42,339 nucleotides of DNA from an uncultured bacterium (GTDB lineage: Bacteria; Fermentibacterota; Fermentibacteria; Fermentibacterales; JCC-6). The stretch is taken from NCBI GenBank assembly GCA_964639605.1, contig CAZXEF010000002.1, positions 1-42,339 of the forward strand. The letters run 5' to 3'. A program made the translations under genes and the position numbers. Of the stretch, positions 9,107 through 37,433 are shown one piece after another; the first letter of the stretch is position 1; every line of letters begins with the position of its first letter. The notes below the pieces were generated by a model. That model made no database searches, was not told where the DNA came from, and saw only the letters and a program-made list of their open reading frames with translations.

Positions 9107-10228
9107 CTATTTCTTAGGCTTCTGCTCCGAAGCCTTCTTCTCCTGCTTGTTCTGATGGTACTTCTCGATGAAATCCTCGGTTATCCTTCTGCACTCGTCA
9201 TCGTAGTACTGGACAGGCGGAGATTTGAAGAAGTAGGATGAGGGAGCTTCTATGGCTCCCGTAAGGCCATTGTCCAGGGCCAGCTTAGCGCACCGAACCG
9301 CATCGATGATGACACCCGCGGAGTTGGGGCTGTCGATCACTTCCAGCTTCGCCTCTATGGTCAGGGGAACTTCGCCGAAACTGGTGCCTTCCATTCGGAT
9401 ATAGCACCACTTCCTGTCATCCAGCCACTCAATGTAGTCGCTGGGACCGATGTGAACGTTCCTCGGAGCAAGACCGCCGGGGAGCTGTGATGTGACAGCG
9501 TTGGTCTTGGAGATCTTCTTGCTCTCGAGCCTCTCCCTTTCCAGCATGTTGAGGAAATCCGTGTTGCCTCCGACGTTGAGCTGGTAGGTCCTGTCCAGCC
9601 TTACGCCCCTGTCCTCGTACAGGCGGGTCATGACACGGTGAAGGATGGTGGCGCCCACCTGGCTCTTAATGTCGTCGCCCATGACGGGAAGGCCCCTGTC
9701 GCGGAATCTCTTCTGCCAGTAGGCCTCACCCGCTATGAACACCGGAATGGCGTTCACGAAGGCGCACCCGGCATCGAGTATCTGCTCCACATACCACTTG
9801 GTGGCCTCTTCGCTTCCCACCGGAAGGTAGCTTACCACCACGTCTGTCTTGGTCTCCTTCAGGATGCCCACGATGTCCGAAGTGGGACCCGGGGCCTTCT
9901 TGATGACTTCTTTGAGGTACTTGCCCAGCCCGTCATGGGTCATTCCCCTGTTGACCTTGACCCCGATCTTCGGAACGTCGCAGATCTTGACGGTGCAGTT
10001 CGGGGCGGCGAATATGGCTTCGCTGAGGTCCTTGCCGACCTTGGTAATGTTGATGTCGAAGGCGGCGGAGAACTCAATGTCACTGACATGATATCCACCA
10101 AGGTTCACGTGCATTAGTCCCGGGACCTTCTCCGTGTCTTTGGCGTTCCGGTAGAACTCGACACCCTGGATAAGGCTGCTTGCGCAGTTCCCGACACCGA
10201 TTATCGCAACTCTCACTTTCTTGGACAT
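9107..10228 (-). CDS. ino1: myo-Inositol-1-phosphate (inositol-3-phosphate) synthase
   Basis: 373 aa. N-terminal [18 protein letters not shown] Rossmann motif. Overall resemblance to the short bacterial/archaeal MIPS family. GGGAGG Shine-Dalgarno sequence upstream. Confidence 0.85.
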
Positions 10229-10280
10229 TCGTATCCTCCCTGAAGGGATTTGACCAGTTAATAAACGGCCTGCGGAGGGA

Positions 10281-10889
10281 TCACTCCCTATCCAGCGATA
10301 CCCCTCTACCGTCCCTGATTACTTTTGCGAACCTCTGCACCGCGGTGACCCATGTCCCCGCGGAAAGTACGGCCAGCATCATTACGATGGCAAGACCGCC
10401 CCAAATACCCGCTGCCACAAGCCCTGCAATCAGAAGAATGAGCCTTTCCGTCCTGGTGAATATACCAACGGAACACGAAAGATTCACTCCCTCGGCTCTG
10501 GCCCTTACATAGCTGACCATGTAGGAGCCTCCTATGGCGGCCGGGACCAGATAGACCAGAGAATGATGGTCTGTACCCGCTTCTCCGGCCAGCATAGATC
10601 CGAAGATGAGCAGCTCGCCTATCCGGTCACAGCTTGAATCGAAGACCGCACCGGCCTTGCTCACTATTCCTTTCCTGCGGGCCAGCTCGCCATCAACCGC
10701 ATCCAGGATGCTGCCGCCGATGAGGAAGGCCGTTCCGGCGAAATACTCCCCGCTCCAGACGAACCAGGCCGCAACAGAGGTAAGCAGCAGTCCGGCCGTT
10801 GTAGCGGAAAAAGGACCCATCCCCATCCATGCCAGCAGGCTGACAAGGGGATCGAGTAATCTTCTGCCGGCTTCCCTTATATCGTCCAG
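10281..10889 (-). CDS. CDP-alcohol phosphatidyltransferase (candidate phosphatidylinositol-phosphate synthase)
   Basis: [12 protein letters not shown]-x8-G-x3-DSSCDRIGE matches the family motif D-x2-DG-x2-AR...G-x3-D-x3-D, in a multi-TM protein. The ORF track starts at the ATG at 10826. The family-typical N-terminus ([21 protein letters not shown]) continues in frame upstream to a CTG at 10889, with no ATG/GTG/TTG in between. The 5' end is therefore uncertain (10826 to 10889). Confidence 0.8.
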
Positions 10890-12445: not shown

Positions 12446-14044
12446 TCACTCCTCTATCCAGATTATCCTGGTCCGGTTGTCCGCCTGTATCTCTCCCAGT
12501 TCCTCTATGTAGCCGGAGACAGCCTCCATGAGAGTGATGTTGGCGGGAACCGCCTCATGTTCCAGCATTATCTCGTAGCCCACGTTCCCCTGGGCCAGGT
12601 AACCTGTAGTGACGAGGCTGTAGATGCTGTCCGGATTCCACGGTTCACCACCAACCAGGATATCGCTCATCTTCTGACCGTCGGGCATTGTCTGGTTGCG
12701 GGTAGCGGTCAATCCTCCTATCTCCATGTCCCTTCTGCGGCCCTGCATTCCGGTTTCCAGGATGTCCCTGAGCTCGGCGCCGGTGACTTCCAGAATGAAG
12801 AGGTGCTCCTCGAAGGGAATGGCCTGATAGATTATTCTGGGGGTCAGGGGTCCACGGGGAATGGCTGCCCTTATCCCGCCCCGGTTCATGAGCGCCACAT
12901 CGGCTCCCGTACTCCAGAGCATGGCATCCGCTACGAGCCTCCCCAGTGGATGCTCGGCATCGCCCCTGGTGATCTGCTCCAGAGCCTCTCCGATGACCTG
13001 GTCCATTCCGGCCTCTGCCACCGACCTGAACCCGTCTATCATCTCCGCCGCCTGAGGGTCGGGCCAGAACTCATCATGAAGGAGGCTTATATACTCCTCC
13101 CCCTCCGGCAGATCGTAACCCACCAGGGTCCCGGTCTCCGTGTCTATGGCCAGCCTGAGCCTGCCTATCCCCGTGCCGTTCGCATAACCCTGTACTACGA
13201 TCGTGTGATTTACAGGACTCACCCAGGGCTCACTGAGACCAAGATGGGTATGCCCGGACACGATGACATCGATGCCCGGTACGAGGCAGGTCAGTTCAGC
13301 GTTGTTCATGGAGAAGTCCTTGGTGTACTCCTCCCCCTGGTCCCAGGCACTGTAGACCCTCTCCAGGTATCGGTCCGGATCACCAGGCTGTCCGAGGTGG
13401 GAGACCAGGATGACGATATCGGCACCCAGTTCCCTCACCTCCTGCACGTACCTCTCCGTAGTCTCGACCTCGTTCAGGAAGACATACCCGGCAAGCAGCT
13501 CGGGGGTCACGAGCCCATAGGTATCGGGAGTCGCAAGACCGATGAAAGCGATGTTCACGCCATCGTATTCCCATATCTCGTAAGGAACTACGGGATAAGG
13601 GATCTCCCCGGTGGCGGAATCGACGAAGTTGGTGCATATCACCGGGAACTCCGCCTGCCGGCACAGCTTGAGCACATTATCGGTACCGTCATCGAAATCA
13701 TGGTTACCCAGGGTCATCATGTCGTATTCAATGGAGTTCATCCACTCCATCACGAACTCGCCGCCCTGATAGTTCCCCGTAGGGGTGCCCTGATAGATAT
13801 CCCCGACGTCTATCAGCAGACAGTACTCCCCTTCGGCCCGGCATTCCTCCCTCACTGCGTTTACATAAGAGCTGATGTAGGCTCCTCCACCGATCATCGG
13901 GGGAAAGTCGGGATTCATGAACGATGCCTCCGTCGGCACTATCCCGCCATGTATGTCATTCGTATGGAGTATGTTCAGATATATGATCTCGCCTGACGCC
14001 CCGAAGGCCAGCAGGAGCGAAAGGACAGGAAGCAGTACTCTCAC
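12446..14044 (-). CDS. Secreted bifunctional metallophosphatase / 5'-nucleotidase (UshA-like)
   Basis: 532 aa. Signal peptide MRVLLPVLSLLLAFGASG. Calcineurin-like motifs HTNDIHGG, DVGD and GNHDFD, and a C-terminal 5'-nucleotidase substrate-binding-like half. Confidence 0.88.
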   Translation of the reverse strand: MRVLLPVLSLLLAFGASGEIIYLNILHTNDIHGGIVPTEASFMNPDFPPMIGGGAYISSYVNAVREECRAEGEYCLLIDVGDIYQGTPTGNYQGGEFVMEWMNSIEYDMMTLGNHDFDDGTDNVLKLCRQAEFPVICTNFVDSATGEIPYPVVPYEIWEYDGVNIAFIGLATPDTYGLVTPELLAGYVFLNEVETTERYVQEVRELGADIVILVSHLGQPGDPDRYLERVYSAWDQGEEYTKDFSMNNAELTCLVPGIDVIVSGHTHLGLSEPWVSPVNHTIVVQGYANGTGIGRLRLAIDTETGTLVGYDLPEGEEYISLLHDEFWPDPQAAEMIDGFRSVAEAGMDQVIGEALEQITRGDAEHPLGRLVADAMLWSTGADVALMNRGGIRAAIPRGPLTPRIIYQAIPFEEHLFILEVTGAELRDILETGMQGRRRDMEIGGLTATRNQTMPDGQKMSDILVGGEPWNPDSIYSLVTTGYLAQGNVGYEIMLEHEAVPANITLMEAVSGYIEELGEIQADNRTRIIWIEE

Positions 14045-14059
14045 TGTTACTCCCCCCGC

Positions 14060-15292
14060 CTACAGCCGGAAAGCCCGGCTGATTGAGAACATGACCCTGG
14101 TATCCGTTTCCTCAACGGTAAGGCTGTCTCCGGAGACGAAGGACGGGAGTCCCGCCAGCTCGGTCTGCATCCACCTGTCAGGGGAGAAGCTCCCGCCCAG
14201 ATCAAGGTTCCAGTCCCCCGAACGGAAGCCCAGGCCGGTGGTGAAGCTCATCCTGTCAAGCGAAGCTGCGATGGGAGAACGCCGGTAGCTGAACCCGAAC
14301 CTTGCGGTGGGTCCACCGGGAAGCGTGTTCTCCACACCGAAGCTCATGCCCCATGAGTTGGAAAGCCCCAGGCTTACATCCTCGAATTGCAGTGACCCTT
14401 CGTTGCTCCAGAAGAATTCGCCCGTCACCCTGGACCTGAGAGTGTTCCCCGGAACGTAAAGGGCTCCGAGTTTCACGGTCATGGGCATGTCCAGGTCGTA
14501 ATCCTCATCGGATAGAGTGTTCCAGTCCACAGGGTCTCCCGAGTTCTCCGGGGATACGGAAAGGGCCATCGGGTATTCCACCGCGGCACTGACGAACACT
14601 CTCCTGTGGGGAGCGAACAGAAGAGAACCTCGAGTGACTACTCCGGACATGGATTCACTGCGCCCGGCAAGGGTCCCGTCCTGTGAAGGGTCCGTGAAGG
14701 CAACTTCCCAGGAGACATCCCTGCTGCCCGTGACATAGCCGCCGGCCAGCCCGAACGTGAGGACCTCGGAAGGCATGAAGGCCACGGCCAGATCGAACTC
14801 GTTCAACTGACCGGAGATGTCCAGCATCTCCTCGCCTGTCTTCACGTAGGCAGCGTCCCTGATGATGCGGTCGTAGCTGTAGCCGAAGATCGCAGGTACC
14901 CTGTAGCCGGCGGCGAAGGCCACCGACCCGGGAAGCCCGGAAACTCCGCGAAGGGCCACGGCGGCCCCTCCGGGGAAGAAGGACATTTCCTTGTTGAAGG
15001 CTATCTCCGATTCCCCTATGGAACTCTCGAACTGGTCATAGACCCTCCTGGTACGCTTCTCTACGAAGAAATCAGCCCCGCCCGAGAACTCCACAAGAAG
15101 CCCCTCTTCCGATAGTCCCAGCAGAGAGGGGTTCTCCAGCATGCCCAGGGCGGAGGTTTCCATGAAGCCGGACCCGCCCATTGCATGCGACACGGCGGAC
15201 TGTGAGCCCAGGGGCTCACCCAGCCACATCACCTCCGGCAGTCCGGCGGTAACCGTCATTAGCGATATCATTCCTGCTGCGATAATGCTCAT
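14060..15292 (-). CDS. Outer-membrane beta-barrel protein, FadL/PorV (UPF0164)-like
   Basis: 410 aa. The N-terminal pattern AVSHAMGGSGF..TSALGMLENPSLLG resembles the (A/G)MGGA...NPA(G/S)L motif of FadL/TodX/PorV-type barrels. Alternating beta-strand pattern throughout. Family assignment is by eye only. Confidence 0.55.
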   Translation of the reverse strand: MSIIAAGMISLMTVTAGLPEVMWLGEPLGSQSAVSHAMGGSGFMETSALGMLENPSLLGLSEEGLLVEFSGGADFFVEKRTRRVYDQFESSIGESEIAFNKEMSFFPGGAAVALRGVSGLPGSVAFAAGYRVPAIFGYSYDRIIRDAAYVKTGEEMLDISGQLNEFDLAVAFMPSEVLTFGLAGGYVTGSRDVSWEVAFTDPSQDGTLAGRSESMSGVVTRGSLLFAPHRRVFVSAAVEYPMALSVSPENSGDPVDWNTLSDEDYDLDMPMTVKLGALYVPGNTLRSRVTGEFFWSNEGSLQFEDVSLGLSNSWGMSFGVENTLPGGPTARFGFSYRRSPIAASLDRMSFTTGLGFRSGDWNLDLGGSFSPDRWMQTELAGLPSFVSGDSLTVEETDTRVMFSISRAFRL

Positions 15293-15304: not shown

Positions 15305-17737
15305 CTACCAGCGGAAATCCAGCTGACAGCGGATCCCGTATTCAGTAGCATGATCGATGAAATCCCTCACCGGGCTGTCAGGGTCGCCCTGGTAGTAGAA
15401 GCTGTCTTCAGGGTCTGGCCTGTAAAGTCCGGTCCTGGGATAGAAAGTGTCTTTTCGAAGAACCCTCAGCCTGAGCTGCAGATTGTCGGACAGGTTGTTC
15501 TTGATAGTCACATAGAATTTCGTACCGTCACCGTCGAGGAAATCGATCCCGGTATCCTCGAATTCCCACTGGCTCATCCCGTCGGTGGACCAGAGGGTGG
15601 TCCCTCCAAGAACGGAAAGGGCTTCGCTGAAGTTGTGTTCCCACCGTGCGGCCAGGTAACCGCCGGACATCAGTCTGTCGTCTCCGTAGAGCGGGTTGGG
15701 GGTCAGCTCCACCATGCCCACCCTGAGCTGGACATCAAAGAAATCGCTTTCGCTGGGAAGGAAGAATGTCCTGAAGGTGTACTCGGTGGTACGGGACGTC
15801 GTGGGTACGACATCATGCATCTTGGTCTTATCCTGGAACTTGTACTTCAGCCTGAACCTCACTGTAAAATCAGGCCTGTACTCCACCTCCCCCTGGAATC
15901 TGTAGTTGTCGAATCCGTAGGGGATGGACCTCCACAGGTCAAGGTAGACCTTGGTGAAGGTGATGCTGCGGCTTACCTGGAAGCGGCTCTCGATGTACAT
16001 ACCCTCCTCGGGTTTCGGGGTAGGCCACTGGGCCAGCTGGGAGGAGAGGGGGTCGTTGAGGTAGTAGGGTTTCTCGAAGATCGTGTCATCGTATCGCAGC
16101 TGCTCCGCGAAACCCCGGTTGTACGGATTGTTGAAACCCAGGTCGTAGTGGCGCCAGATACCAAGGAGGTAGAAGTAGTCGTTCTGCCACATCCCCCTTG
16201 CCAGTGCGGCCATGGACTCGTTGTCCTGGCGCACCATCTCACCCTCCAGACTTACGTTGTCGATAATGGTCTGGGCCGAGAAGCCGACGAATGATGAGGA
16301 TTCACCTGCCTCCAGCACATCGTACTCCGGGCAGCTCCACACCTGGGCGTCGCCGGGGATGTCCATCGTCCCCGCATCGGGGACCAGCGAGTCACTGTAG
16401 CTGACGTTCATGCCCCCGAGCCCTATTGCCGTGCCGCAGGGCAGAAGGCCTCCGAAGTCGTAGAAGCCGTAACCGCCGTAGGTGGTCTCCTTGACCACGT
16501 CGGCGTAGGGGGAAGTCCTGGTGGCCGACATGAAGAGGATGTTCGGCGTACCGTCGATATCCCTGATGGCGTCCCTGGACGCGCTGGAATAGAACCCGTA
16601 TCCAAGGAACGGCCCTGTCTGGACCTCAAGGGCACCTCCCACCATGGCGAACTGCCTGGTTGAGGTGAGATCGGGGTAAAGACCCCATGTTCTGTAAGTC
16701 GACCTGTACATCATCTCGTCAGAATTGTCTATCAGCAGCCCCTGACCCAGAGACAGGTGATAGTTGCCGAGGACGGCCTGCCTTACCGCTCCGATGTTCT
16801 CTATGGCCGCGAATCCCTTGGCCACGTCAAAACGCCGGTTGAGATCCCCCAGGTCAAGGTCGTCGAACAGACCGAATCCCGAAGACGAGTTCCTCCCCCT
16901 GGAAAGCCTTGCTCCTCCCCTGAACCTGTCACCCAGTCCCACACGCACCCGGTGTTCCCAGGCGGTGGTGTTAACCGCCTGCAGAAGCTCCTGGTGCTCG
17001 TCACTTATCCTCGCCAGCCATGCGATGCTGTCCGATTCGGAGTAGCCCCTGCCGCCGGACATCATGTCGTACTCGGCTGACCTGAGCTCGCCCAGCATTG
17101 TCCCCAGGCCCTCCTCGTCGTAGAACCTTCCGTCGCCCCCGTCAACCACGACCCTGTAGCTGCCGAAGAAATCCATGGAGCTCAGGTCAAGGTCCCTGAT
17201 GGAAATGAAGTCACGCATGTTCCGGTAGCCGTAGTAAGTGAGGTTGTCCACGTTCCGCAGTGATGTTACGCTCGAGACGGGACCGAGGGTCTTCAGTCTG
17301 GTCTCTACCGCCGCAGCGTCCACAAGGCTCACCCTGTCAAGGCTGCGAAGCTGCCATGAGGTTGCGGAATTTATGGGAATGGGTCGGATCAGGTAGTTCT
17401 CCCACATGTCCACCGCGGCGTCACCGGGACCATCCTCGGTGGCAAGCCTCTCCATGACGCTCATAACCTGCTGGGATACGATTCCCTCGGAAGGAGGGAC
17501 CACAACGCATCTGCTCCTGAGATAGTCAAGCTCCTGAGGACCGAAGCCCGGGATATCCATCACATCGTATATGCTGCGGAGACCGCCCGTTTCGTAGATG
17601 TACCCGTAGAGTTCCTCCGCCTGAAGGGCAGTGAGGCCCGGCAGTTCCTGCAGCTCCTCCAAAGTTGCGGTGTTGAGATCGAACCCGCCGGGAACGGCCA
17701 GACCAACGCATGCTGCCAGTACCAGACTAGAAATCAT
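15305..17737 (-). CDS. Large outer-membrane protein: two ComEA-type helix-hairpin-helix modules fused to a roughly 600-aa beta-rich (barrel-like) region
   Basis: 810 aa with a signal peptide. LNTATLEELQELPGLTALQAEELYGYIYETGGLRSIYDVMDIPGFGPQELDYL matches the ComEA pattern (N.A...EL..LPG.G...A..I......G.F.S..DL..V.G.G). A second, weaker copy is INSATSWQLRSLDRVSLVDAAAVETRLKTLGPVSSVTSLRNVDNLT. The rest is beta-strand-like and ends in an aromatic residue (..QLDFRW). Confidence 0.6.
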   Translation of the reverse strand: MISSLVLAACVGLAVPGGFDLNTATLEELQELPGLTALQAEELYGYIYETGGLRSIYDVMDIPGFGPQELDYLRSRCVVVPPSEGIVSQQVMSVMERLATEDGPGDAAVDMWENYLIRPIPINSATSWQLRSLDRVSLVDAAAVETRLKTLGPVSSVTSLRNVDNLTYYGYRNMRDFISIRDLDLSSMDFFGSYRVVVDGGDGRFYDEEGLGTMLGELRSAEYDMMSGGRGYSESDSIAWLARISDEHQELLQAVNTTAWEHRVRVGLGDRFRGGARLSRGRNSSSGFGLFDDLDLGDLNRRFDVAKGFAAIENIGAVRQAVLGNYHLSLGQGLLIDNSDEMMYRSTYRTWGLYPDLTSTRQFAMVGGALEVQTGPFLGYGFYSSASRDAIRDIDGTPNILFMSATRTSPYADVVKETTYGGYGFYDFGGLLPCGTAIGLGGMNVSYSDSLVPDAGTMDIPGDAQVWSCPEYDVLEAGESSSFVGFSAQTIIDNVSLEGEMVRQDNESMAALARGMWQNDYFYLLGIWRHYDLGFNNPYNRGFAEQLRYDDTIFEKPYYLNDPLSSQLAQWPTPKPEEGMYIESRFQVSRSITFTKVYLDLWRSIPYGFDNYRFQGEVEYRPDFTVRFRLKYKFQDKTKMHDVVPTTSRTTEYTFRTFFLPSESDFFDVQLRVGMVELTPNPLYGDDRLMSGGYLAARWEHNFSEALSVLGGTTLWSTDGMSQWEFEDTGIDFLDGDGTKFYVTIKNNLSDNLQLRLRVLRKDTFYPRTGLYRPDPEDSFYYQGDPDSPVRDFIDHATEYGIRCQLDFRW

Positions 17738-18557
17738 AGGTCACCCCGAACTGGTGGGTCAGGTCGAGCTGAGGATGGGTAATGACGGCGTAGTCGAGCA
17801 GGATCCCGCTCACCGAGGTCTCCAGTCCCCCGGAGATCGTGACCGGTCCGCTCTGGACCCCGGCCATCACGGTGAGAGGTCCCAGCGGAAGGGCCTGACC
17901 TACATGTACCCTTGTCCCGTCAAGGTCGCGGGAAAATGTCAGGGCGGAGATCATACCACCGGAAGGCTCGTAGCGAAGTCCGGCGTCCATCCTTCTCTTC
18001 AGGTACTCCCCGCTCTCCCCTATCCTGGCCTGGAAGGGGTTCCGTATCGAGGCCGCCAGCAGCCACCTGTCGTACATCCTGACCTGAAAACCGGCATTGA
18101 CCGCGAAAGCGGTGGCGCTGCCGTACTCCGATACCCCGTCGGCTATCTCCGCCCTGCAGATGACAGGCTGTATCCCGAAGGACATGTCATCGGTCAGCAT
18201 CCCCGCAAAGGTAAAGGCTGCCATCTGCTCATTGTAGAGGTCTCCGCCGAAGTAGCGGAGGCTGAGACCGGCCTTCCACCTTCCGGCCAGGGGAAGCGCT
18301 CCGTCCGCCCCGTAGGTCCCGAAGTCCATGTTCGAGAAGGGGAGCCTGCCCGAGCAGGTTGCCGTGATGGTCTCGGCGCCGGCAATGGAAGCCGGGTTGA
18401 AAAGAACGGAGCCCGTTCCGAACAGGACCACGCCGGTTCCCCCCATGGCCTGGGCGGCTACGCCGATCTCAAGTTCCTCGAACGCTGCAGTTGCCTGTCC
18501 CGCCATGGCAAGCAGGATCAGGAAGAATACTCTGGTCTTAATGCGCATATGTGACAC
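17727..18557 (-). CDS. Small outer-membrane beta-barrel protein, FadL/PorV/PorQ-like
   Basis: 276 aa. Signal peptide ..LLAMAGQATA. AAQAMGGTGVV..GSVLFNPASIAG motif. C-terminal ..FGVTYDF (terminal Phe typical of BAM substrates). Confidence 0.55.
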   Translation of the reverse strand: MSHMRIKTRVFFLILLAMAGQATAAFEELEIGVAAQAMGGTGVVLFGTGSVLFNPASIAGAETITATCSGRLPFSNMDFGTYGADGALPLAGRWKAGLSLRYFGGDLYNEQMAAFTFAGMLTDDMSFGIQPVICRAEIADGVSEYGSATAFAVNAGFQVRMYDRWLLAASIRNPFQARIGESGEYLKRRMDAGLRYEPSGGMISALTFSRDLDGTRVHVGQALPLGPLTVMAGVQSGPVTISGGLETSVSGILLDYAVITHPQLDLTHQFGVTYDF

Positions 18558-18558: not shown

Positions 18559-19578
18559 TCAATTCAGCGGAGCGGCCACCACCACCGTCTCGGTGGTGGT
18601 ATAGCGCTTGCCTTCAGAATCCACGCCTTCCAGAAGCACCAGGTAGGGACCCATTGAGAGGAACTCGCCGGAATCATCCGTGCCGTCCCACTGGACAACG
18701 TCACCCGCGGGTCTGGATTCGGCAAGGTGCGCCACATCCTTTCCCGCCCTGTCGAACACGGTAAGGGAGAACGACATGTCCGAGGGTCCACCGTACTCCA
18801 TATTGACCGTTTCTCCAAGTATCGGTGCAAAGGGGTTTCCTGTCAGCACCGTGAGATGGAACCCATCGGAGATGGATGGCTGGTACACCTGCAGGTCCGA
18901 CTGGTACCTAGGAAGCAGCTGATAGCCACTGTCGTAGGGAGGTTCCGAGTCGTACTGCCCCCCTATCCCCTTCATGAAGAGCCTGGTGCCTGCGGATATG
19001 CCGGAAACGCTTATTCCGGTAGTGGAGTTGACCCGGACGGCAACGGCGGTCTGTCCGTTCCATACGGTGAAATTGTAACCGCCTCCGGCGGACTCCGGAC
19101 TGTTAGCCACGGTAACCCACTGTCCCTGACCGCTGTTACCCAGTGCAAGCAGGAGCCCTTCCACTCCTTCGGTGACACCCTGGTTCAGTCCAAGCTGCAG
19201 AGGATCGGGCACTCCCGGGAAATCCAGGTAAGTGAAATCGGAAGAGCTTGCAGGTGAGATCTCGACGAGACCGTTGTACTGCTTTATCTCACCCGTGATC
19301 CTCCATCTCTCCCCTGCCTGTATGGGACCCGGGCTGGCGGAATCGTACGCGTATACGTTGATTCCCGCGGTCTCATCCTGAACGTAGAAACTAAGTCCGG
19401 TCTCGGAGAAGAGCGTGCCCTCACAAGTGGCCGTACCCTCTATCGTGAGTATCTCGCCGAGGTGATCGGGAATCCCGTCACCGTTCAGGTCCTCCCGGGC
19501 CTCCTGAATGGTCACTGTCTGGGCTCCCGACAACCCGATGAAAAGTGTCAGGATCAGTACCGGGAAACTGCTCGTCAT
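18559..19578 (-). CDS. Secreted protein: N-terminal OB-fold-like module plus C-terminal FlgD-Ig / T9SS-like sorting domain
   Basis: 339 aa with a signal peptide. ILTIEGTATCEGTLFSETGLSFYVQDETAGINVYA...GERWRITGEIKQYNGLVEI resembles the OB module found in ExeM/NucH/YhcR-type extracellular nucleases. The C-terminus NPFAPILGETVNMEYGGPSDMSFSLTVFDRAGKDV..WDGTDDSG..GPYLVLL is FlgD-Ig-like. Confidence 0.5.
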   Translation of the reverse strand: MTSSFPVLILTLFIGLSGAQTVTIQEAREDLNGDGIPDHLGEILTIEGTATCEGTLFSETGLSFYVQDETAGINVYAYDSASPGPIQAGERWRITGEIKQYNGLVEISPASSSDFTYLDFPGVPDPLQLGLNQGVTEGVEGLLLALGNSGQGQWVTVANSPESAGGGYNFTVWNGQTAVAVRVNSTTGISVSGISAGTRLFMKGIGGQYDSEPPYDSGYQLLPRYQSDLQVYQPSISDGFHLTVLTGNPFAPILGETVNMEYGGPSDMSFSLTVFDRAGKDVAHLAESRPAGDVVQWDGTDDSGEFLSMGPYLVLLEGVDSEGKRYTTTETVVVAAPLN

Positions 19579-19605: not shown

Positions 19606-20916
19606 TCAGTCAAGCTCGGACTCAAGCTCGGCATCGGAGAGGTTTGCGGCCCTCTCCAGGGCTTCCTCCGCGCTCATTCTGCCGTAAAGCGCTATCTCCA
19701 CAGCCTCGGAGAGGAACATCCTTCCATCGTACCAGAAGGTTCCCTGAGGCTCGAAATACGCATATTCCACCTGCAGCATGACATCCTCCAGACCGGGGTA
19801 CTTCCTGAACAGCTCGCGTACCACCGGATGTGAAAGCGAACTCCTGGTTGCGGGAATATAACCTGTGGCGGCACTCCACCGTGCCTGCTGCTCCGGCTCG
19901 GTGAACCATTTTATGAACTCCCAGCCGGCCCGTACCTCTTCCGGGCTTGACCTGAACAGTATGACATTCGTGCCTGCGATTATGACGGCTTTCTCCCTTC
20001 CGGCCGGAAGGGGGGCTATGCCCAGGGTGAAAACCTCGTCGCCGCTGTTCTCCATCCTCTCGATGCTGCTTTCCAGGAAAGCCATCGATACGGTGGAGCC
20101 CTGCACCAGTCCCACCTTTCCCTCAAGGAAATCGTTCTGGTGGGTATAACCTGAGGATATCCTTGCTGAACCGTCCTCATGTATCAGGTCTATCAGGAGC
20201 TGAAGGGCCTCTATTCCCTCGGGTGAATTGAAGGCGGTTCGCGTGCTGTCGCTGTTAAGGAGGGTGCCCCCGTTCTGCAGGAGCAGGTTCTCGAACATTC
20301 CCACGCTGGGATCGAAGGCGGTCCCCCACCTGTCGGAATCGTCCAGCAGGTCGCCATCGCCGTTGCCGTCCAGAGTGAGGGAATCAAGGACCATGCGGTA
20401 ACTGTCCCAGGTATCAGGCGGGGACAGCCCCAGAAGGTCCATCAGCTCTGAATTGTAGTAGATGGCCTGGACGCTCTTGTTGAAGGGAAAACTGTATATT
20501 CGGCCGCTGTAGGTGTTGTTCCGGCGGAAAACGCTGAAAAAATCGCTGTTCCATCTGTCCGTAATATCCGGGGAGTCCAGCTCCATCAGCGAATCCAGGG
20601 GAACCAGTGCCTCTCCCCTGATCAACTGGGATGTCCATGTCTCGTAGGCCTGGGCGACCACGGGCGGATCGTCCGCCATGACGCTGGCCAGTATCTTCTG
20701 GCACAGCGCCCTGTAGTTCCCCATGCTTACCGGAACGACCTCTATTCCAGGGTGTGTGTCGTTGAACTCGGTGATGAGGGTGTCCTCCAGGTATTCTCCC
20801 AGCGGACCTCCCATGGCGTGCCAGAATTCTATCCGGACCTCATCGTCGCTGTTCCTGGAATCCTCCCCGCAGGCCAGCGCGAGTAGCAGGAGAATCGGAA
20901 AGGATCTTCTGAACAG
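19606..20916 (-). CDS. ABC-transporter substrate-binding lipoprotein, family-1 (sugar / glycerol-phosphate type), orphan
   Basis: The 402-aa track ORF starts at the ATG at 20814. The frame stays open upstream and encodes a complete lipoprotein signal (L)FRRSFPILLLLALAC|GEDS, preceded by GAGGAGG 6 nt before a CTG at 20916. The body resembles MalE/UgpB-type SBPs. No permease or ATPase gene lies nearby. Confidence 0.8.
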   Translation of the reverse strand: MFRRSFPILLLLALACGEDSRNSDDEVRIEFWHAMGGPLGEYLEDTLITEFNDTHPGIEVVPVSMGNYRALCQKILASVMADDPPVVAQAYETWTSQLIRGEALVPLDSLMELDSPDITDRWNSDFFSVFRRNNTYSGRIYSFPFNKSVQAIYYNSELMDLLGLSPPDTWDSYRMVLDSLTLDGNGDGDLLDDSDRWGTAFDPSVGMFENLLLQNGGTLLNSDSTRTAFNSPEGIEALQLLIDLIHEDGSARISSGYTHQNDFLEGKVGLVQGSTVSMAFLESSIERMENSGDEVFTLGIAPLPAGREKAVIIAGTNVILFRSSPEEVRAGWEFIKWFTEPEQQARWSAATGYIPATRSSLSHPVVRELFRKYPGLEDVMLQVEYAYFEPQGTFWYDGRMFLSEAVEIALYGRMSAEEALERAANLSDAELESELD

Positions 20917-20995
20917 ATTCGACCTCCTCAGGTGGAACCGGATAACACAGGCTAGTATACTACCTCGCAGAATCCCCTACCAGAGACAGGGGAGG

Positions 20996-24324: not shown

Positions 24325-25845
24325 CTACCGAAGCAGCATCAGCCTGCTCGAGACCCTGATACCGCCGGTGCTGAATTCGCAGATGTAGATTCCTGAAGGC
24401 TCTTCGGCAGTATCCCAGGTAACCGTACCAGCACCGGCCTCAAGAAAACCTGAGAGGATGTTCGACACCCTCCTGCCGCAGAGATCATATATTGTGATCT
24501 CCGCGGGTCCCGAAGCCTCCAGGCTGTACAAAAAGGTCGCCGTACCGCTGAAGGGATTGGGGCCGGCAAGGTCCAGTGTCGCTGAGGGGGGGTCCGTGAC
24601 ACCCCCCTGACCTAAGCCGGTATCCGAATTCCTGACGCATCGGACGAAGTTATATATCCTTACCACGTCGCCCTGGGGACCATGTCCGTGGGGATACTGG
24701 GAAGGGTCGCCTGTTTTCGGGTCGCTCCTCTGAGCGCCGGCCCCGTGGACGTCCCAGAGTTCCCAGGAGGTCGAGTCCGGTGTCATCATCCAGCCCAGCG
24801 CCTCGCCGAAGGCTATGTAGACGGCAAAGCCGCCATCATCCCCGGGCATCGTCGTCTGATGGGTTGTCCCGGTCCAGTAGAAACCGAAGTTCGGGGTACC
24901 GCCTTCGTCTGTGATCTGGGTACAATCGAAGACGGAATCGATGGACGGTGAGCCGGTGGCCTGCATCGACCTCTCATAATCCACAATACTCTGCAGCTCA
25001 TGGGCGTTGGGAAGCCGCCAGTCATCGTACCCGGCCAGGCAGAGGTCCTCAGCGCAGGCAAGGGCTTCCTCCCAGTTCCTTCCCGTGCCGTCGTCAGCCT
25101 GCTGCCACATCAGCCCGGTGGCCGTGTCCGTAACGGTACCGTCACCGTTGTCGACGAACTGGTTCTGGCCGTAACAGTCGCCTCGCACGTATCTGACGAA
25201 GGACCGCATCAGGAAAGTCTGCCCGGGAGGACCCACCTCCTGGCTGGGGTAACCCTTTATCCTTCCATCGGCGAAGTTCACCCCAAAGGCTGTTGAATCT
25301 CCATTCATGGTCAGTCCCCGGTAAACAGTGGATGACCAGTACTGGGCATCGATAAGCCTTTCGCCGGCAAGGGTGTCGCCGTACTGGAACTCGAAATAGT
25401 CAGTATCGATGAAGGGTATCAGGTTCTGTGGGTCAGGTCCGCTCGGATCGGTGCCGCTGAACTGGATCAGCGAGTAGAGTTCCTTGATGGTCGGCAGTCT
25501 CCAGTCACTGTATCCTCCTGTGCCGCAGGTGTCCACACCGGTCTCGGCTTCTTCCCAGGACATCTTCTCCGGGGGCAGCCCCTGCTGCCACATCAATCCT
25601 GTGTTAAGGTCCGTGACCGTTCCGTCGCCGTTGTCCACGTATGAAGGCTGGAGCCCAGAGAACTGGGCGTCCTGACCGTAAAAAGGTTCTCCTGGCTGCG
25701 GTTCTCCGATCACCGATACAGTATCGAAGCACAGTGACTGGTCGGTGTCCGGCAGCGGGTAAGGGACCGCGGCCACCCATGCCGGTGCAGCGAACAGCAT
25801 GAGAAGCCCCGTTGCATCATGGACCCATTTCTTCCAAACGCCCAT
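24325..25845 (-). CDS. Secreted DUF1566 (Lcl C-terminal domain) repeat protein with T9SS/FlgD-Ig-like C-terminal sorting domain
   Basis: 506 aa with a signal peptide. Two DUF1566-type modules (GLMWQQ...DWRLPTIKELYSL and GLMWQQ...DWRLPNAHELQSI). C-terminal NPFSGTATFLYSLEASGPAEITIYDLCGRRV...SGIYICEF. Confidence 0.7.
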   Translation of the reverse strand: MGVWKKWVHDATGLLMLFAAPAWVAAVPYPLPDTDQSLCFDTVSVIGEPQPGEPFYGQDAQFSGLQPSYVDNGDGTVTDLNTGLMWQQGLPPEKMSWEEAETGVDTCGTGGYSDWRLPTIKELYSLIQFSGTDPSGPDPQNLIPFIDTDYFEFQYGDTLAGERLIDAQYWSSTVYRGLTMNGDSTAFGVNFADGRIKGYPSQEVGPPGQTFLMRSFVRYVRGDCYGQNQFVDNGDGTVTDTATGLMWQQADDGTGRNWEEALACAEDLCLAGYDDWRLPNAHELQSIVDYERSMQATGSPSIDSVFDCTQITDEGGTPNFGFYWTGTTHQTTMPGDDGGFAVYIAFGEALGWMMTPDSTSWELWDVHGAGAQRSDPKTGDPSQYPHGHGPQGDVVRIYNFVRCVRNSDTGLGQGGVTDPPSATLDLAGPNPFSGTATFLYSLEASGPAEITIYDLCGRRVSNILSGFLEAGAGTVTWDTAEEPSGIYICEFSTGGIRVSSRLMLLR

Positions 25846-26663: not shown

Positions 26664-27284
26664 CTACCGGAAGGTGGCCTTGGCAACACCCCAGGTGTAA
26701 TGCTCAACGGTGTAGCCGTCGGGCCTGTTGTCGAACCATCTCCTGATGGACCACAGGCCGTAGGTATCCTCCACCATGAGGAACTTGACGCGTCCCCGGG
26801 CCGAGTTTTCCCAGCCTGCGTAATCGCTTCCGGCTACCACTATCTCGTAGTCCCTCCAGATGTCAGCGGAATCGGTGGGGGCCACCGGGTCGGGGATCTC
26901 CGGTACAAAGTTCATAACCACGTAGACAAGGCTGTCTTCCGGCAGACCCGATCCCGACACGAAATTGTAGATGTTCATCAGAGTGTTCTGCTCCACCTGA
27001 TAGTTCCAGTTGCCGAAATTCCATGAGCCGCCGAAATCGGTTGTATCGGCACCGTCGGCGACGAACATGTACGAGGAATCGCAGCAGGCCATGGTCATGG
27101 CGATCGACCTTCCCTCCAAGGAGTTCTCAAGGTTCACCACCACCGTGGAGGGAGAGTAGGGCTGCTGCCAGGGTATCGCCTCCCCCGGGTCCGGGTCCTC
27201 AGGATCCCTCGGTTCGAAGAAGGAGCAGGACGTGACAGCAAGGGCTGCAATGACTGACAGGACGATGTAACTGCGATATCTCAT
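26664..27284 (-). CDS. Lipoprotein of unknown function
   Basis: 206 aa. Signal plus lipobox ..AALAVTS|C. No recognisable catalytic motif. 12 nt downstream of the 606-aa barrel gene. Confidence 0.6.
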   Translation of the reverse strand: MRYRSYIVLSVIAALAVTSCSFFEPRDPEDPDPGEAIPWQQPYSPSTVVVNLENSLEGRSIAMTMACCDSSYMFVADGADTTDFGGSWNFGNWNYQVEQNTLMNIYNFVSGSGLPEDSLVYVVMNFVPEIPDPVAPTDSADIWRDYEIVVAGSDYAGWENSARGRVKFLMVEDTYGLWSIRRWFDNRPDGYTVEHYTWGVAKATFR

Positions 27285-29117: not shown

Positions 29118-29932
29118 GACATGGCCTCTGCCATGGCCAGGAAGCGCTCCGGCGGGACCTGCTCCGCCCTGAGTTCGGGATCCACCCCCGCGGACCTCAG
29201 GAGTCCGGCGGCCTCTTCCCTGTCCATGATGGTCTTCAGGTTGTTGAAAATAGTCTTCCTCCTCTTCGCGAAGGACACTTTCACCAGCCTTCTGAAACGG
29301 GAGTAAGTGTCTCCCGACGCCAGAGGCTCTCCTCGCCTGTTCAGGACCAGTACCCTGGACCTGACCTCGGGGGGCGGAAAGAAGTCCTCCGGTTCCGCAT
29401 CCAGAAGCTCCTCCACCGTGAACAGCGGCCAGATCTGAAGTGAAAGTTTACCGTAATCCCTACCGCCGTCAAGTGCCGACAACCGCTGAGCTACTTCTCT
29501 CTGCAGCATGATCACCGCCGTTGTAACCTGCCTGAAGCCGTCCTCAAGCAGTCTGAACAGTATGGGGGATGAGATGGAATAGGGCAGATTGCCGGCAATG
29601 GTGGAGAAAGGGAAACCGGGGAGGGCGGACGGGTCCAGTTTCAGGAAATCACCGTGAACCACGGTCAGGGACCGGTCGGAGAATCTCTTTTCCAGGAAAT
29701 CCGACATCCTGGCCGATATCTCCACCGCCGTAAGAGATCCGCACCTCTTCAGCAGCTTTTCAGTCAGCGAACCCAGTCCGGGGCCTATCTCCAGCGTACT
29801 GCCCTCCACGGGCACCGCAGCCGCTATCTTCATGGCGATGGAGGGATTGACAAGGAAGTTCTGCCCCAGGTCACGGTCAGGCCTGAGCCCAACGCTCTTC
29901 AGACTGCGTCTGACCTCAGGCAGCAGCATCAT
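29114..29932 (-). CDS. rsmA: 16S rRNA (adenine1518/1519-N6)-dimethyltransferase
   Basis: 272 aa. LGQNFL, EIGPGLGSLT and GNLPY motifs of KsgA/RsmA. Confidence 0.92.
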   Translation of the reverse strand: MMLLPEVRRSLKSVGLRPDRDLGQNFLVNPSIAMKIAAAVPVEGSTLEIGPGLGSLTEKLLKRCGSLTAVEISARMSDFLEKRFSDRSLTVVHGDFLKLDPSALPGFPFSTIAGNLPYSISSPILFRLLEDGFRQVTTAVIMLQREVAQRLSALDGGRDYGKLSLQIWPLFTVEELLDAEPEDFFPPPEVRSRVLVLNRRGEPLASGDTYSRFRRLVKVSFAKRRKTIFNNLKTIMDREEAAGLLRSAGVDPELRAEQVPPERFLAMAEAMS

Positions 29933-36308: not shown

Positions 36309-36394
36309 TGGTGCGAGAGGGGGGACTTGAACCCCCACAAGCATAGCTTACCAGATCCTAAATCTGGCGCGTCTGCCAATTCCGCCACTCCCGC
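36309..36394 (-). tRNA. tRNA-Leu (anticodon UAG), CCA encoded
   Basis: Manual cloverleaf: acceptor GCGGGAG/CTCTCGC (one G-U); anticodon stem CCAGA/TCTGG with loop TT-TAG-GA; long variable arm with AAGC/GCTT stem; T-arm GGGGG-TTCAAGT-CCCCC; 3' ACCA. Confidence 0.9.
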
Positions 36395-37431: not shown

Positions 37432-37433
37432 GA

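What the first reader, a model, noticed from the sequence alone, without database searches (positions are those of the whole stretch)
15305..17737. ComEA-type DNA-binding HhH modules fused to a large outer-membrane beta-rich protein
Residues about 20-80 (nt about 17497-17680) match the ComEA C-terminal HhH pattern almost residue for residue at the conserved positions. A second, degenerate copy follows about 50 residues later. The remaining roughly 600 aa look like a transmembrane barrel: alternating strands and a terminal aromatic FRW. ComEA is normally a periplasmic or membrane-anchored DNA receptor, and outer-membrane DNA passage normally uses a PilQ secretin. An HhH::barrel fusion would be an unusual architecture for DNA recognition at the outer membrane.
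Basis: partly seen in the sequence, partly recalled or inferred. Interest (0 to 1): 0.7.

Follow-up and report, generated by a model that had tools for sequence, protein, structure and literature searches.

The report
Outer-membrane barrel fused to ComEA-like modules
A conserved but unstudied outer-membrane channel protein of uncultivated anaerobic bacteria carries two ComEA-like helix-hairpin-helix modules on its periplasmic end and always sits next to a 5'-nucleotidase, which suggests a new route for taking up and digesting environmental nucleic acids.

Summary
ORF 15305-17737(-) encodes an 810-aa protein made of a signal peptide, two HhH (HHH_3) modules and a 24-strand beta-barrel that ends in a beta-signal (…QLDFRW). 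Module 1 matches Pfam at E 1.8e-13. Module 2 is confirmed by profile comparison (98% probability).

The fusion is real and belongs to a large family that carries only generic names (981 clusters at 90% identity; Fermentibacterota, WOR-3, Cloacimonadota, UBP2, Latescibacterota, Balneolaceae). No Pfam model covers the barrel and I found no paper on it.

The loop/turn pattern puts the HhH modules in the periplasm, not on the cell surface. Both modules lack ComEA's experimentally defined DNA contacts (the G-Φ-G hairpin and K62/K63).

The nucleic-acid link comes from the gene context instead. A FadL-family barrel and a 5'-nucleotidase follow the gene in 79/82 and 71/71 loci. A PorV-like barrel precedes it in 77/80. 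In this phylum a surface protein with a T9SS C-terminal domain lies upstream; it is homologous to DUF5689/DdbD and its model resembles HIN-type dsDNA binders. The inferred barrel lumen carries a conserved Arg/Lys ladder.

Best reading (about 0.45): this is the outer-membrane conduit of a DNA/nucleotide scavenging module that resembles the Bacteroidota ddb loci but uses an unrelated channel without a TonB plug.

The parts
15305..17737 (-). Gene for the 810-aa HhH::beta-barrel protein (stop codon 15305-15307)
   Evidence: ORF. About 60 full-length homologs at 35-90% identity. 127 clusters at 50% identity with E<=1e-30. 981 clusters at 90% identity with E<=1e-10.
17687..17737 (-). Signal peptide, aa 1 to about 17 (MISSLVLAACVGLAVPG), short and with no Lys/Arg in this clade
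   Evidence: Predicted helix aa 2-13. Relatives have classical signal peptides that end just before the xDLN motif. The Cys is not conserved, so this is not a lipobox.
17498..17686 (-). HhH module 1 (aa 18-80), ComEA/HHH_3-like; acidic (net -8, pI 4.05, no Lys)
   Evidence: Pfam HHH_3 E 1.8e-13. PDB profile hits to EEPD1 and ComEA. Charge. Hairpin residues.
17384..17497 (-). Conserved acidic helical linker (aa 81-118), motif MERLAxEDGPGDAAVxxWE
   Evidence: Invariant L98 A99 E101 P104 W112 L116. Helices 89-98 and 106-117.
17204..17383 (-). HhH module 2 (aa 119-178), divergent and basic (net +2, pI 9.5); motifs VSLVDA and YYGYRNMRD
   Evidence: Weak as a single sequence. hhalign against module 1: 98% probability, E 2.6e-13. 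PDB profile hits EEPD1 1.6e-12 and ComEA 5e-7.
15308..17170 (-). 24-strand outer-membrane beta-barrel (aa 190-810)
   Evidence: AF2 secondary structure. Alternating long/short connectors. Foldseek hits only outer-membrane barrels: ushers, MtrB, SlpA, TonB-dependent transporters, porins. No Pfam hit for aa 265-810 even at E 10.
16964..17140 (-). Loop 1 insert between strands 1 and 2 (aa 200-258): two helices, strongly acidic (net -8); candidate cap or plug
   Evidence: Helices 211-226 and 234-253. Net charge -2 to -12 across all 26 homologs. The cap/plug role is inference.
15827..15862 (-). Strand 17 (aa 626-637) carrying a conserved lumen-facing basic ladder R627, R629, K631, K633, K637
   Evidence: At least 85% K/R in 36 sequences from both deep branches. 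Inferred lumen-facing residues are 30 K/R vs 17 D/E, against 23 vs 59 in the rest of the barrel region (Fisher p 9e-5).
15308..15334 (-). C-terminal beta-signal (aa 802-810, IRCQLDFRW)
   Evidence: Q805, D807 and W810 are invariant within A1. Alternating hydrophobic residues with a terminal aromatic.
17727..18557 (-). Upstream partner: 276-aa PorV/PorQ-like (FadL-superfamily) small barrel; overlaps the HhH gene by 11 nt
   Evidence: NCBIfam PorV_fam E 1.4e-7, below cutoff. Present immediately upstream in 55/55 Fermentibacterota loci and 22/25 others. Also present in Balneolaceae.
14060..15292 (-). Downstream partner: 410-aa FadL-family (Toluene_X / BamG-like) barrel
   Evidence: NCBIfam BamG E 2.3e-7, below cutoff. 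Homologs carry Pfam Toluene_X. Adjacent in 54/56 and 25/26 loci.
12446..14044 (-). 5'-nucleotidase/UshA-family phosphoesterase (532 aa) with a type I signal peptide and no Cys
   Evidence: Metallophos E 3.6e-13 plus 5_nucleotid_C E 1.1e-29. UshA-like E 2.4e-52. Present two genes downstream in 49/49 and 22/22 loci and.
18559..19578 (-). DdbD/DUF5689-like tandem-OB (HIN-like) protein with a T9SS-type Ig-like C-terminal domain (339 aa)
   Evidence: FlgD_ig/CHU_C C-terminal domain. Aligns at 35% identity, E 1e-46, to the DUF5689+CTD part of 1130-aa homologs. AF2 pLDDT 89.6. Top Foldseek hits are HIN-200 dsDNA binders p204/MNDA/p202/IFI16/AIM2. Upstream in 50/51 Fermentibacterota loci and 5/22 others.
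19606..20814 (-). ABC-type solute-binding protein (SBP_bac_1/8; weakly UgpB-like), syntenic within the phylum; membership of the module is uncertain
   Evidence: Pfam. NCBIfam UgpB E 3e-22, far below cutoff. Syntenic in 45/46 Fermentibacterota loci and 3/21 others.

Best explanation
The 810-aa protein is the outer-membrane conduit of a conserved module that acquires nucleic acids or nucleotides.

Shown:
- It is a 24-strand outer-membrane barrel with an N-terminal tandem HhH domain.
- It is co-inherited with a PorV-like barrel, a FadL-family barrel and a signal-peptide-bearing 5'-nucleotidase.
- In Fermentibacterota it is also co-inherited with a T9SS-anchored DdbD/HIN-like OB-fold protein.

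Inferred:
- The surface OB-fold protein captures extracellular DNA.
- DNA, oligonucleotides or nucleotides pass through the wide barrel along a conserved lumenal Arg/Lys ladder, without TonB.
- The periplasmic HhH tandem sits at the exit. It either holds the incoming polyanion in a ComEA-like ratchet, though through non-canonical contacts, or it gates the pore.
- The periplasmic 5'-nucleotidase strips phosphate from the mononucleotides produced, giving nucleosides and Pi for uptake.

The nuclease step is not encoded in the operon and is unknown.
For: - Architecture.
- Diderm host: a Tol-Pal cluster is in the window, and PMC5030696 reports a diderm LPS envelope for this phylum.
- Synteny across 87 loci from at least five candidate phyla at 35-97% identity: 5'-nucleotidase 71/71, FadL-like barrel 79/82, PorV-like barrel 77/80.
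- The neighbouring 339-aa protein is homologous to the DUF5689+CTD part of larger proteins that also carry ExeM/NucH-type OB folds. Its confident model matches HIN dsDNA-binding domains.
- DUF5689 is the DdbD / RA0C_RS04920 family, required for DNA utilisation in B. thetaiotaomicron and for transformation in Riemerella (PMC12478041; PMC8459023).
- Inferred lumen-facing positions are enriched in conserved basic residues, including a five-residue ladder.
- There is no room for a TonB box, because the HhH module starts right after the signal peptide. No Plug or TonB_dep_Rec hit was found.
- ComEA acts as a periplasmic DNA ratchet (PMC3879209).
Against: - Both HhH modules lack the G-Φ-G hairpins and the K62/K63-equivalent residues needed for DNA binding by ComEA. 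Module 1 has Q39. Module 2 has an invariant D140. K63E abolishes ComEA function.
- Module 1 is strongly acidic in this clade.
- No nuclease and no nucleoside transporter is encoded in the conserved core.
- The DdbD-like gene is adjacent in only 5/22 loci outside Fermentibacterota.
- The Balneolaceae member lacks the FadL-like barrel and the 5'-nucleotidase nearby.
- Lumen-facing positions were inferred from hydrophobic alternation, not from coordinates. I could not see whether loop 1 or the HhH domain plugs the pore.
- Foldseek TM-scores to known barrels are low (0.2-0.34), so the pore geometry is uncertain.
- All evidence is computational, from uncultivated organisms.
Confidence: 0.45

Rival explanations
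1. Competence-type DNA uptake. The barrel is the outer-membrane entry port for transforming DNA. It would be the non-Bacteroidota counterpart of the Riemerella RA0C_RS04915/04920 system, with its own built-in ComEA handing DNA on to ComEC.
For: ComEA-like modules in the periplasm. A DdbD/RA0C_RS04920-like neighbour. In Riemerella a separate HhH protein, RA0C_RS02645, is essential for transformation. RecJ follows the operon in 11 WOR-3 loci.
Against: The invariant partner is a 5'-nucleotidase, which is a catabolic enzyme. No ComEC, DprA or ComF genes occur in the window or the flanks examined. ComEA's DNA-contact residues are missing. The RecJ has no signal peptide and travels with housekeeping genes, so this is probably lineage synteny.
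Confidence: 0.12
2. A channel for small organophosphates or nucleotides, not polymers. The HhH tandem does not bind nucleic acid. It would be a periplasmic gate or a docking site, for example for the 5'-nucleotidase or the partner barrels, as in the non-DNA-binding HHH_3 protein PsbU.
For: Canonical DNA-contact residues are lost in both modules, and Asp is invariant at the K63-equivalent position of module 2. Module 1 and loop 1 are acidic while the lumen is basic, which fits an electrostatic plug. PsbU appears among the weak HHH_3-fold hits. The 5'-nucleotidase acts on mononucleotides. The SBP is weakly UgpB-like.
Against: A 24-strand barrel is much larger than small solutes need. A DdbD/HIN-like DNA-binding protein is co-located in several lineages. 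The HhH tandem is conserved over great distances, which argues for a ligand-related role.
Confidence: 0.2
3. An envelope-biogenesis or T9SS-associated platform unrelated to nucleic acids. The big barrel together with the PorV-like and BamG-like barrels would anchor or assemble cargo carrying a T9SS C-terminal domain at the surface.
For: The neighbours weakly match PorV/PorQ and BamG families. The upstream protein carries a T9SS-type C-terminal domain. The operon is near-universal in the phylum, as expected for a housekeeping function.
Against: The PorV and BamG matches are far below family cutoffs (30 bits against 90-250). This reading does not explain the invariant 5'-nucleotidase or the HhH modules. 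Cloacimonadota loci keep the triad without a PorV-like or CTD gene nearby.
Confidence: 0.1

Closest known systems
ComEA (periplasmic or membrane-anchored competence DNA receptor; Pfam HHH_3 PF12836, TIGR01259/TIGR00426)
   Same: The same HhH fold family (E 1.8e-13; PDB 8dfk/8dss/2duy hits). The predicted location is periplasmic, where ComEA acts as a DNA ratchet.
   Different: ComEA is a small soluble or inner-membrane-anchored protein. Here two modules are fused to a 620-aa outer-membrane barrel. Scores are far below the NCBIfam ComEA cutoffs (33 vs 152 bits). The G-Φ-G hairpins and the DNA-contacting Lys pair are absent across the family.
DdbCD / RA0C_RS04915-04920 outer-membrane DNA transporter of Bacteroidota (ddbABCDEF DNA-utilisation loci, PNAS 2025; Riemerella natural transformation, 2021)
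   Same: A DUF5689/HIN-like surface DNA-binding protein encoded beside an outer-membrane barrel. The locus is linked to nucleic-acid catabolism. The host belongs to the FCB-group lineage.
   Different: DdbC is a TonB-dependent-type transporter with a CarboxypepD_reg domain and a plug, and it is unrelated to this barrel. ddb loci encode nucleases, whereas this module encodes none and always has a 5'-nucleotidase plus FadL/PorV-like barrels. The binder is anchored through a T9SS C-terminal domain rather than as a lipoprotein. In Riemerella the HhH protein is a separate gene.
EEPD1 (tandem HhH modules + endo/exonuclease/phosphatase domain; PDB 9yi2)
   Same: It is the best solved-structure sequence match to both HhH modules (E 1e-19 and 1.6e-12), and it has the same tandem arrangement.
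   Different: It is a eukaryotic soluble nuclease-family protein with no membrane barrel.
Chaperone-usher pore FimD/PapC
   Same: Top Foldseek hit. The usher barrel is described in the literature as 24-stranded (not counted here), and it has an N-terminal periplasmic substrate-handling domain.
   Different: TM-score is only about 0.3. There is no usher Pfam match, no mid-barrel plug domain and no C-terminal domains. The operon has no chaperone or pilin genes.
Anion-selective channels with Arg/Lys ladders (OprP/OprO), cited from general knowledge
   Same: Conserved basic residues line one face of the inferred lumen, as expected for conduction of phosphate-bearing anions.
   Different: Those are 16-strand trimeric porins for phosphate and pyrophosphate. 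There is no homology, and the ladder here is inferred from sequence periodicity only.
Vibrio cholerae extracellular-DNA phosphate scavenging (Xds/Dns nucleases, then periplasmic UshA/CpdB), cited from general knowledge; B. subtilis YhcR (OB fold + nuclease + 5'-nucleotidase), the source of JGI's automatic name for the 339-aa neighbour
   Same: A UshA-family 5'-nucleotidase acts as the periplasmic end-step of extracellular-DNA use. In YhcR an OB-fold DNA binder and a 5'-nucleotidase are functionally coupled.
   Different: Those systems use general porins and have no dedicated HhH-barrel. Here no nuclease domain was found.

Membership tests
ComEA (competence DNA receptor) | HHH_3-type helix-hairpin-helix domain | tested here: met
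   PF12836 at E 1.8e-13, 50.8 bits against a cutoff of 27. Module 2 confirmed by profile comparison.
ComEA (competence DNA receptor) | Score reaches the curated ComEA family cutoffs (TIGR01259, TIGR00426) | tested here: not met
   33.2 bits against 152.35, and 25.1 bits against 53.1.
ComEA (competence DNA receptor) | G-Φ-G hairpin followed by basic residues that contact DNA (V. cholerae G60, K62, K63) | tested here: not met
   The window protein has T36/L38/Q39. Across 36 family members position 36 is never Gly and position 39 is never Lys. The module-2 equivalent is an invariant Asp (D140).
ComEA (competence DNA receptor) | Binds DNA without sequence specificity | not testable with these tools
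   Needs EMSA or anisotropy on aa 18-185.
ComEA (competence DNA receptor) | Periplasmic location | tested here: met
   By prediction only. The N-terminus lies on the short-turn side of the barrel: turns average 3.4 aa against 24 aa for loops. By the established outer-membrane-protein topology rule, that side is the periplasm.
BAM-dependent outer-membrane beta-barrel protein | Signal peptide, an even number of antiparallel amphipathic strands, long loops alternating with short turns | tested here: met
   24 strands, strict alternation of connector lengths, and a hydrophobic dyad pattern within strands.
BAM-dependent outer-membrane beta-barrel protein | C-terminal beta-signal with a terminal aromatic residue | tested here: met
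   …I-R-C-Q-L-D-F-R-W. W810 is invariant in A1, and distant members end in F, W or Y.
BAM-dependent outer-membrane beta-barrel protein | Structural similarity to solved outer-membrane barrels | tested here: met
   248 Foldseek hits at E<=1e-3. All 50 listed are outer-membrane barrels, but TM-scores are only 0.2-0.34, so no specific family is indicated.
TonB-dependent transporter (including DdbC / RA0C_RS04915) | N-terminal TonB box plus a plug domain inside a 22-strand barrel | tested here: not met
   No Plug, TonB_dep_Rec or CarboxypepD_reg hit at E<=1. The HhH module starts directly after the signal peptide. The model has 24 strands.
ddb-type DNA-utilisation locus (Bacteroidota) | DUF5689 (DdbD) surface DNA-binding protein encoded with the outer-membrane transporter | tested here: met
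   The 339-aa neighbour aligns to the DUF5689+CTD region of larger homologs (E 1e-46; DUF5689 E down to 5e-11), and its model has a HIN-like fold. The window protein itself does not reach a Pfam DUF5689 hit.
ddb-type DNA-utilisation locus (Bacteroidota) | Secreted and periplasmic nucleases encoded in the locus | tested here: not met
   No nuclease domain was found in the six operon genes.
ddb-type DNA-utilisation locus (Bacteroidota) | The locus is required for depletion of exogenous DNA | not testable with these tools
   The organisms are uncultivated.
Chaperone-usher pore | Usher Pfam domains, a plug between strands 6 and 7, and chaperone/pilin genes in the operon | tested here: not met
   No usher Pfam hits. 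The operon content is different.
Secretin (PilQ) DNA-uptake channel | Secretin domain and N-domains | tested here: not met
   No Secretin hit. The model is a monomeric 24-strand barrel.

The most novel reading that the evidence does not exclude
This family is a previously unrecognised type of outer-membrane DNA translocon that needs neither TonB nor a pilus. It would be a monomeric 24-strand barrel with a lumenal Arg/Lys track and a covalently attached periplasmic HhH ratchet or gate. It would work in a three-barrel complex with PorV-like and FadL-like partners and a T9SS-anchored HIN-like DNA catcher. It is conserved across at least five largely uncultivated phyla (Fermentibacterota, WOR-3, Cloacimonadota, UBP2, Latescibacterota), and would give them a dedicated route for feeding on environmental DNA.
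Probability: 0.25. Interest if true: 0.85.

Novelty: new variant of a known kind. Interest (0 to 1): 0.66.

Why it matters
Only a few ways of moving DNA across the outer membrane are known: PilQ secretins with type IV pili and, very recently, the TonB-dependent DdbCD-type transporters of Bacteroidota.

This family would be a third solution, structurally unrelated to both. Its ComEA-like element is built into the channel, and the channel is wired to a 5'-nucleotidase.

It occurs in abundant but uncultivated fermenters of anaerobic digesters, sediments and hypersaline mats, where extracellular DNA is a major pool of phosphorus, nitrogen and carbon. That gives a concrete, testable gene marker for DNA scavenging in these phyla.

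The family also lacks any domain model for its barrel and is currently annotated either as "hypothetical" or, misleadingly, as "competence protein ComEA". A correct description would improve the annotation of about a thousand protein clusters.

Tried and rejected
- Pfam and NCBIfam on the barrel part alone (aa 265-810): no hit even at E 10. The barrel cannot be assigned to any curated family.
- Foldseek against PDB: only generic barrel similarity (TM 0.2-0.34). I rejected assigning it to the usher, MtrB, SlpA or TonB-dependent transporter families.
- Net charge as a test of DNA binding. Module 1 is very acidic. By my own hand count of the sequences printed, ComEA-type HhH modules can also be net negative, so charge alone is not decisive. 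I replaced it with the residue-specific test.
- Lipoprotein reading of the 'LAAC' in the signal peptide: rejected, because the Cys is not conserved.
- RecJ next to the operon in WOR-3 as a periplasmic exonuclease: rejected, because it has no signal peptide and travels with a housekeeping methyltransferase.
- Riboswitch or regulatory RNA upstream of the operon: none found in Rfam; only one tRNA in the whole window.
- Promoter and terminator scan of 11.5-21.5 kb: no more sites than shuffled controls give.
- Literature searches for an HhH-barrel fusion or for DNA scavenging in these phyla: nothing on this family.
- SBP specificity: only a weak UgpB-like match, which is not informative.
- One paper search failed on syntax.
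- I could not inspect model coordinates, so pore diameter and plugging by loop 1 or the HhH domain remain unknown.
Full report
**1. Observation**

The ORF listing finds an 810-aa ORF at exactly 15305..17737 on the minus strand. It overlaps the upstream gene by 11 nt and sits 12 nt from the downstream one.

Pfam HHH_3 matches aa 18-74 at E 1.8e-13 (50.8 bits, cutoff 27) and reports two stretches. The NCBIfam ComEA models match the same residues but far below their cutoffs. A profile of 26 homologs matches the tandem HhH modules of EEPD1 (9yi2, E 1e-19) and ComEA structures (8dfk, 8dss, 2duy).

The second copy (aa 119-178) is weak as a single sequence (E 0.007). As a family profile it is clearly an HhH module. 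hhalign against module 1 gives 98% probability, E 2.6e-13. The module-2 profile alone finds EEPD1 (1.6e-12) and ComEA (5e-7).

The C-terminal part has no Pfam or NCBIfam match. AlphaFold2 on the alignment (pLDDT 75.6, pTM 0.75) gives 24 long antiparallel strands from aa 190 to 809. Foldseek against PDB returns only outer-membrane barrels: FimD/PapC ushers, MtrB, SlpA, TonB-dependent receptors and porins. TM-scores are low (0.2-0.34), so no specific relative emerges. The protein ends in I-R-C-Q-L-D-F-R-W, a typical beta-signal.

**2. Topology**

The 23 connectors between strands alternate strictly. Those after odd-numbered strands are long (59, 24, 35, 22, 26, 4, 45, 5, 10, 10, 17, 30 aa). Those after even-numbered strands are short (3, 2, 2, 9, 2, 3, 4, 2, 2, 4, 4 aa).

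By the established rule for outer-membrane proteins, short turns are periplasmic and long loops are extracellular. Both termini therefore lie in the periplasm, and so does the HhH tandem.

The host is a diderm. The window encodes a Tol-Pal cluster, and the phylum has been described as having an LPS-containing diderm envelope (PMC5030696).

**3. Who has it**

The closest genome is a Candidatus Fermentibacteraceae MAG at 97% identity (L005). Full-length homologs occur in:
- Fermentibacterota (Aegiribacteria, Fermentibacter, Sabulitectum) at 54-97% identity;
- candidate division WOR-3, UBP2 and a Latescibacterota MAG at 34-39%;
- Cloacimonadota;
- a Balneolaceae bacterium, as a shorter form with one HhH module.

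An exhaustive profile search finds 127 clusters at 50% identity with E<=1e-30. A word-indexed search with distant members finds 981 clusters at 90% identity.

All distant members keep the same plan: signal peptide, HhH1, conserved acidic linker, HhH2, then a barrel ending in an aromatic residue. [quoted passage not shown] Five literature searches found no paper on this architecture.

**4. Context**

The gene lies in a tight same-strand cluster:
- solute-binding protein (19606-20814);
- 339-aa OB/Ig protein (18559-19578);
- 276-aa PorV/PorQ-like barrel (17727-18557);
- HhH-barrel (15305-17737);
- 410-aa BamG/FadL-like barrel (14060-15292);
- 532-aa 5'-nucleotidase (12446-14044).

I called ORFs in 87 related loci and searched them with iterated HMMs. 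The table counts only loci with enough flanking sequence.

| Neighbour | Fermentibacterota | Other clades |
|---|---|---|
| PorV-like barrel, upstream | 55/55 | 22/25 |
| FadL-like barrel, downstream | 54/56 | 25/26 |
| 5'-nucleotidase | 49/49 | 22/22 |
| 339-aa protein | 50/51 | 5/22 |
| Solute-binding protein | 45/46 | 3/21 |

In Cloacimonadota and two other lineages the precomputed annotation shows HhH protein, then Toluene_X (FadL family), then Metallophos/5_nucleotid_C. The Balneolaceae member keeps only the small upstream barrel.

Within one phylum, synteny may simply reflect common descent. Retention of the triad down to about 35% identity across phyla argues for functional coupling.

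**5. The DNA link that does not depend on the HhH modules**

In three distant loci the homolog of the 339-aa protein is 1130-1160 aa long. It carries Big_5 repeats, ExeM/NucH-type OB folds (E 2e-13 to 1e-25), DUF5689 (E 2e-6 to 5e-11) and a T9SS C-terminal domain. The window protein aligns to the DUF5689+CTD part at 35% identity, E 1e-46.

Its AF2 model is confident (pLDDT 89.6). Its best PDB matches are HIN-200 tandem-OB dsDNA-binding domains: p204, MNDA, p202, IFI16 and AIM2 (E 2e-6 to 1e-3, TM about 0.35-0.43 on the target).

DUF5689 is the family of two studied proteins. DdbD is the proposed surface DNA-binding partner of the DdbC transporter in the B. thetaiotaomicron DNA-utilisation locus, and was itself noted to resemble p202 (PMC12478041). 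RA0C_RS04920 is essential for natural transformation in Riemerella (PMC8459023).

UshA-family 5'-nucleotidases are the usual periplasmic end-step of extracellular DNA or nucleotide use (general knowledge). JGI's automatic name for the 339-aa protein refers to B. subtilis YhcR, in which an OB fold, a nuclease and a 5'-nucleotidase are fused.

**6. Do the HhH modules look like DNA binders?**

In V. cholerae ComEA, DNA binding and uptake depend on G60 of the G-I-G hairpin and on K62/K63, and K63E abolishes function (PMC3879209).

The equivalents in module 1 are T36, L38 and Q39. In 36 sequences from both deep branches, position 36 is never Gly, position 39 is never Lys (Gln in 21), and position 38 is Lys in only 3. 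In module 2 the K63-equivalent is the invariant Asp D140, and neither hairpin has G-Φ-G.

Module 1 is strongly acidic in the window's clade (net -8, no Lys). Module 2 is basic (net +2).

The residues conserved with ComEA are structural ones: the D-x-N-x-A cap, G51 and Y57. ComEA-style DNA binding is therefore not supported. Non-canonical binding, gating or protein docking remain open. PsbU is a precedent for a non-DNA role of this fold and appears among the weak hits.

**7. Barrel interior**

I used the hydrophobic dyad of each strand to assign the lipid-facing and lumen-facing phases. The lumen-facing set has 30 K/R and 17 D/E. The rest of the barrel region has 23 K/R and 59 D/E (Fisher p 9e-5).

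Fourteen basic lumen positions are at least 85% conserved across both deep branches. They include a five-residue ladder on strand 17 (R627, R629, K631, K633, K637).

Loop 1 carries a two-helix acidic insert (net -8 here and -2 to -12 across the 26 homologs). A basic track fits conduction of a phosphate-rich polyanion. The acidic loop 1, or HhH module 1, could be an electrostatic plug. Both points are inference from sequence periodicity, because I could not read the model's coordinates.

**8. Mechanism proposed (confidence about 0.45)**

The T9SS-anchored HIN-like protein captures extracellular DNA. DNA or its fragments enter the periplasm through the 24-strand barrel along the basic track, without TonB. 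There is no room for a TonB box and no plug domain. The HhH tandem at the periplasmic mouth retains the substrate or gates the pore. The 5'-nucleotidase, which has a type I signal peptide, releases phosphate and nucleosides.

The architecture and the co-inheritance are shown. Every transport and binding step is inferred. The nuclease is unknown.

Rivals:
- a competence port feeding ComEC (0.12);
- a channel for small nucleotides or organophosphates in which the HhH domain is only a gate or dock (0.20);
- a T9SS or BAM-related surface platform (0.10).

**9. Comparison and novelty**

The protein works most like a combination of ComEA and an outer-membrane DNA transporter of the DdbCD type, but it is a member of neither family. 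It fails the ComEA cutoffs and lacks the DNA-contact residues. Its barrel lacks every defining feature of TonB-dependent transporters, ushers and secretins.

The module shares only the DdbD-like binder with ddb loci. It has no nucleases, and it adds FadL/PorV-family barrels and an invariant 5'-nucleotidase.

I rate it a new variant of a known kind (envelope systems for acquiring nucleic acids), built on an undescribed barrel family. If the barrel really translocates DNA, it would be a third and structurally distinct outer-membrane DNA route.

Interest is 0.66. The family is widespread, conserved, unannotated and directly testable, but all the evidence is computational, and the feature that drew attention to the gene, the ComEA-like modules, lacks the canonical DNA-binding residues.

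Noticed in passing
window 20815-20920 (-), upstream of the SBP ORF 19606-20814: The reading frame continues upstream of the listed ATG and encodes FRRSFPILLLLALAC|GED, a lipoprotein-like signal peptide. It is preceded by GGAGG, 6 nt and then CTG. The solute-binding protein probably starts at a non-canonical CTG and is lipid-anchored.
   Followed up: partly
window 29929-31050 (-): A 373-aa ORF joins the C-terminal two-thirds of a TatD-type DNase domain (profile positions 79-253) to a Radical SAM domain. This is an unusual fusion, or possibly a mis-joined ORF.
   Followed up: no
window 36757-39944 (-) and 36312-36394 (-): A Tol-Pal cluster (YbgF-like TPR protein, Pal/OmpA-family protein, TolB, TolA/TonB_2) confirms a diderm envelope. 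One tRNA gene is the only Rfam hit in the window.
   Followed up: partly
window 24325-25845 (-): A 506-aa protein with two Lcl_C domains and a T9SS C-terminal sorting domain. It is a second T9SS-type cargo in the window, which supports the presence of T9SS-style surface anchoring in this organism.
   Followed up: no
window 27297-29117 (-) and 26664-27284 (-): Two adjacent ORFs of 606 aa and 206 aa have no Pfam or NCBIfam match at all.
   Followed up: no
window 9107-10826 (-): myo-Inositol-1-phosphate synthase lies next to a CDP-alcohol phosphatidyltransferase, which suggests that this bacterium makes inositol phospholipids.
   Followed up: no
L003, L004, L064, L067, L071, L072, L074, L077, L078, L080, L082 (downstream of the 5'-nucleotidase); L056 and L062 (about 2 kb further): In WOR-3-type loci a RecJ exonuclease without a signal peptide, followed by a PUA-domain methyltransferase, comes directly after the 5'-nucleotidase. 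This is probably lineage synteny, but it is a recurring DNA-processing neighbour.
   Followed up: partly
P0098 (1251 aa): One family member carries an N-terminal extension of about 430 aa rich in TPR-like repeats ahead of the two HhH modules and the barrel.
   Followed up: no
window 17727-18557 (-) versus 14060-15292 (-); L086: Profiles of the PorV-like 276-aa barrel and the FadL-like 410-aa barrel cross-hit each other at about 1e-5. The two partner barrels flanking the HhH gene therefore look like distant paralogs.
   Followed up: partly
L088 6159-9091 (Balneolaceae, REDA01000049.1): The most distant member (696 aa, a single HhH module) keeps a 274-aa PorV-like barrel immediately upstream (27% identity, E 8e-11). 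It has glutamate synthase downstream instead of the FadL-like barrel and 5'-nucleotidase.
   Followed up: partly
L086 702-12520 (GCA_975963555.1, taxon not named): This locus has the fullest version of the module: an ABC permease, an SBP, two DdbD-like CTD proteins (554 and 617 aa), a PspC-domain protein, a PorV-like barrel, the HhH-barrel, a FadL-like barrel and the 5'-nucleotidase.
   Followed up: partly
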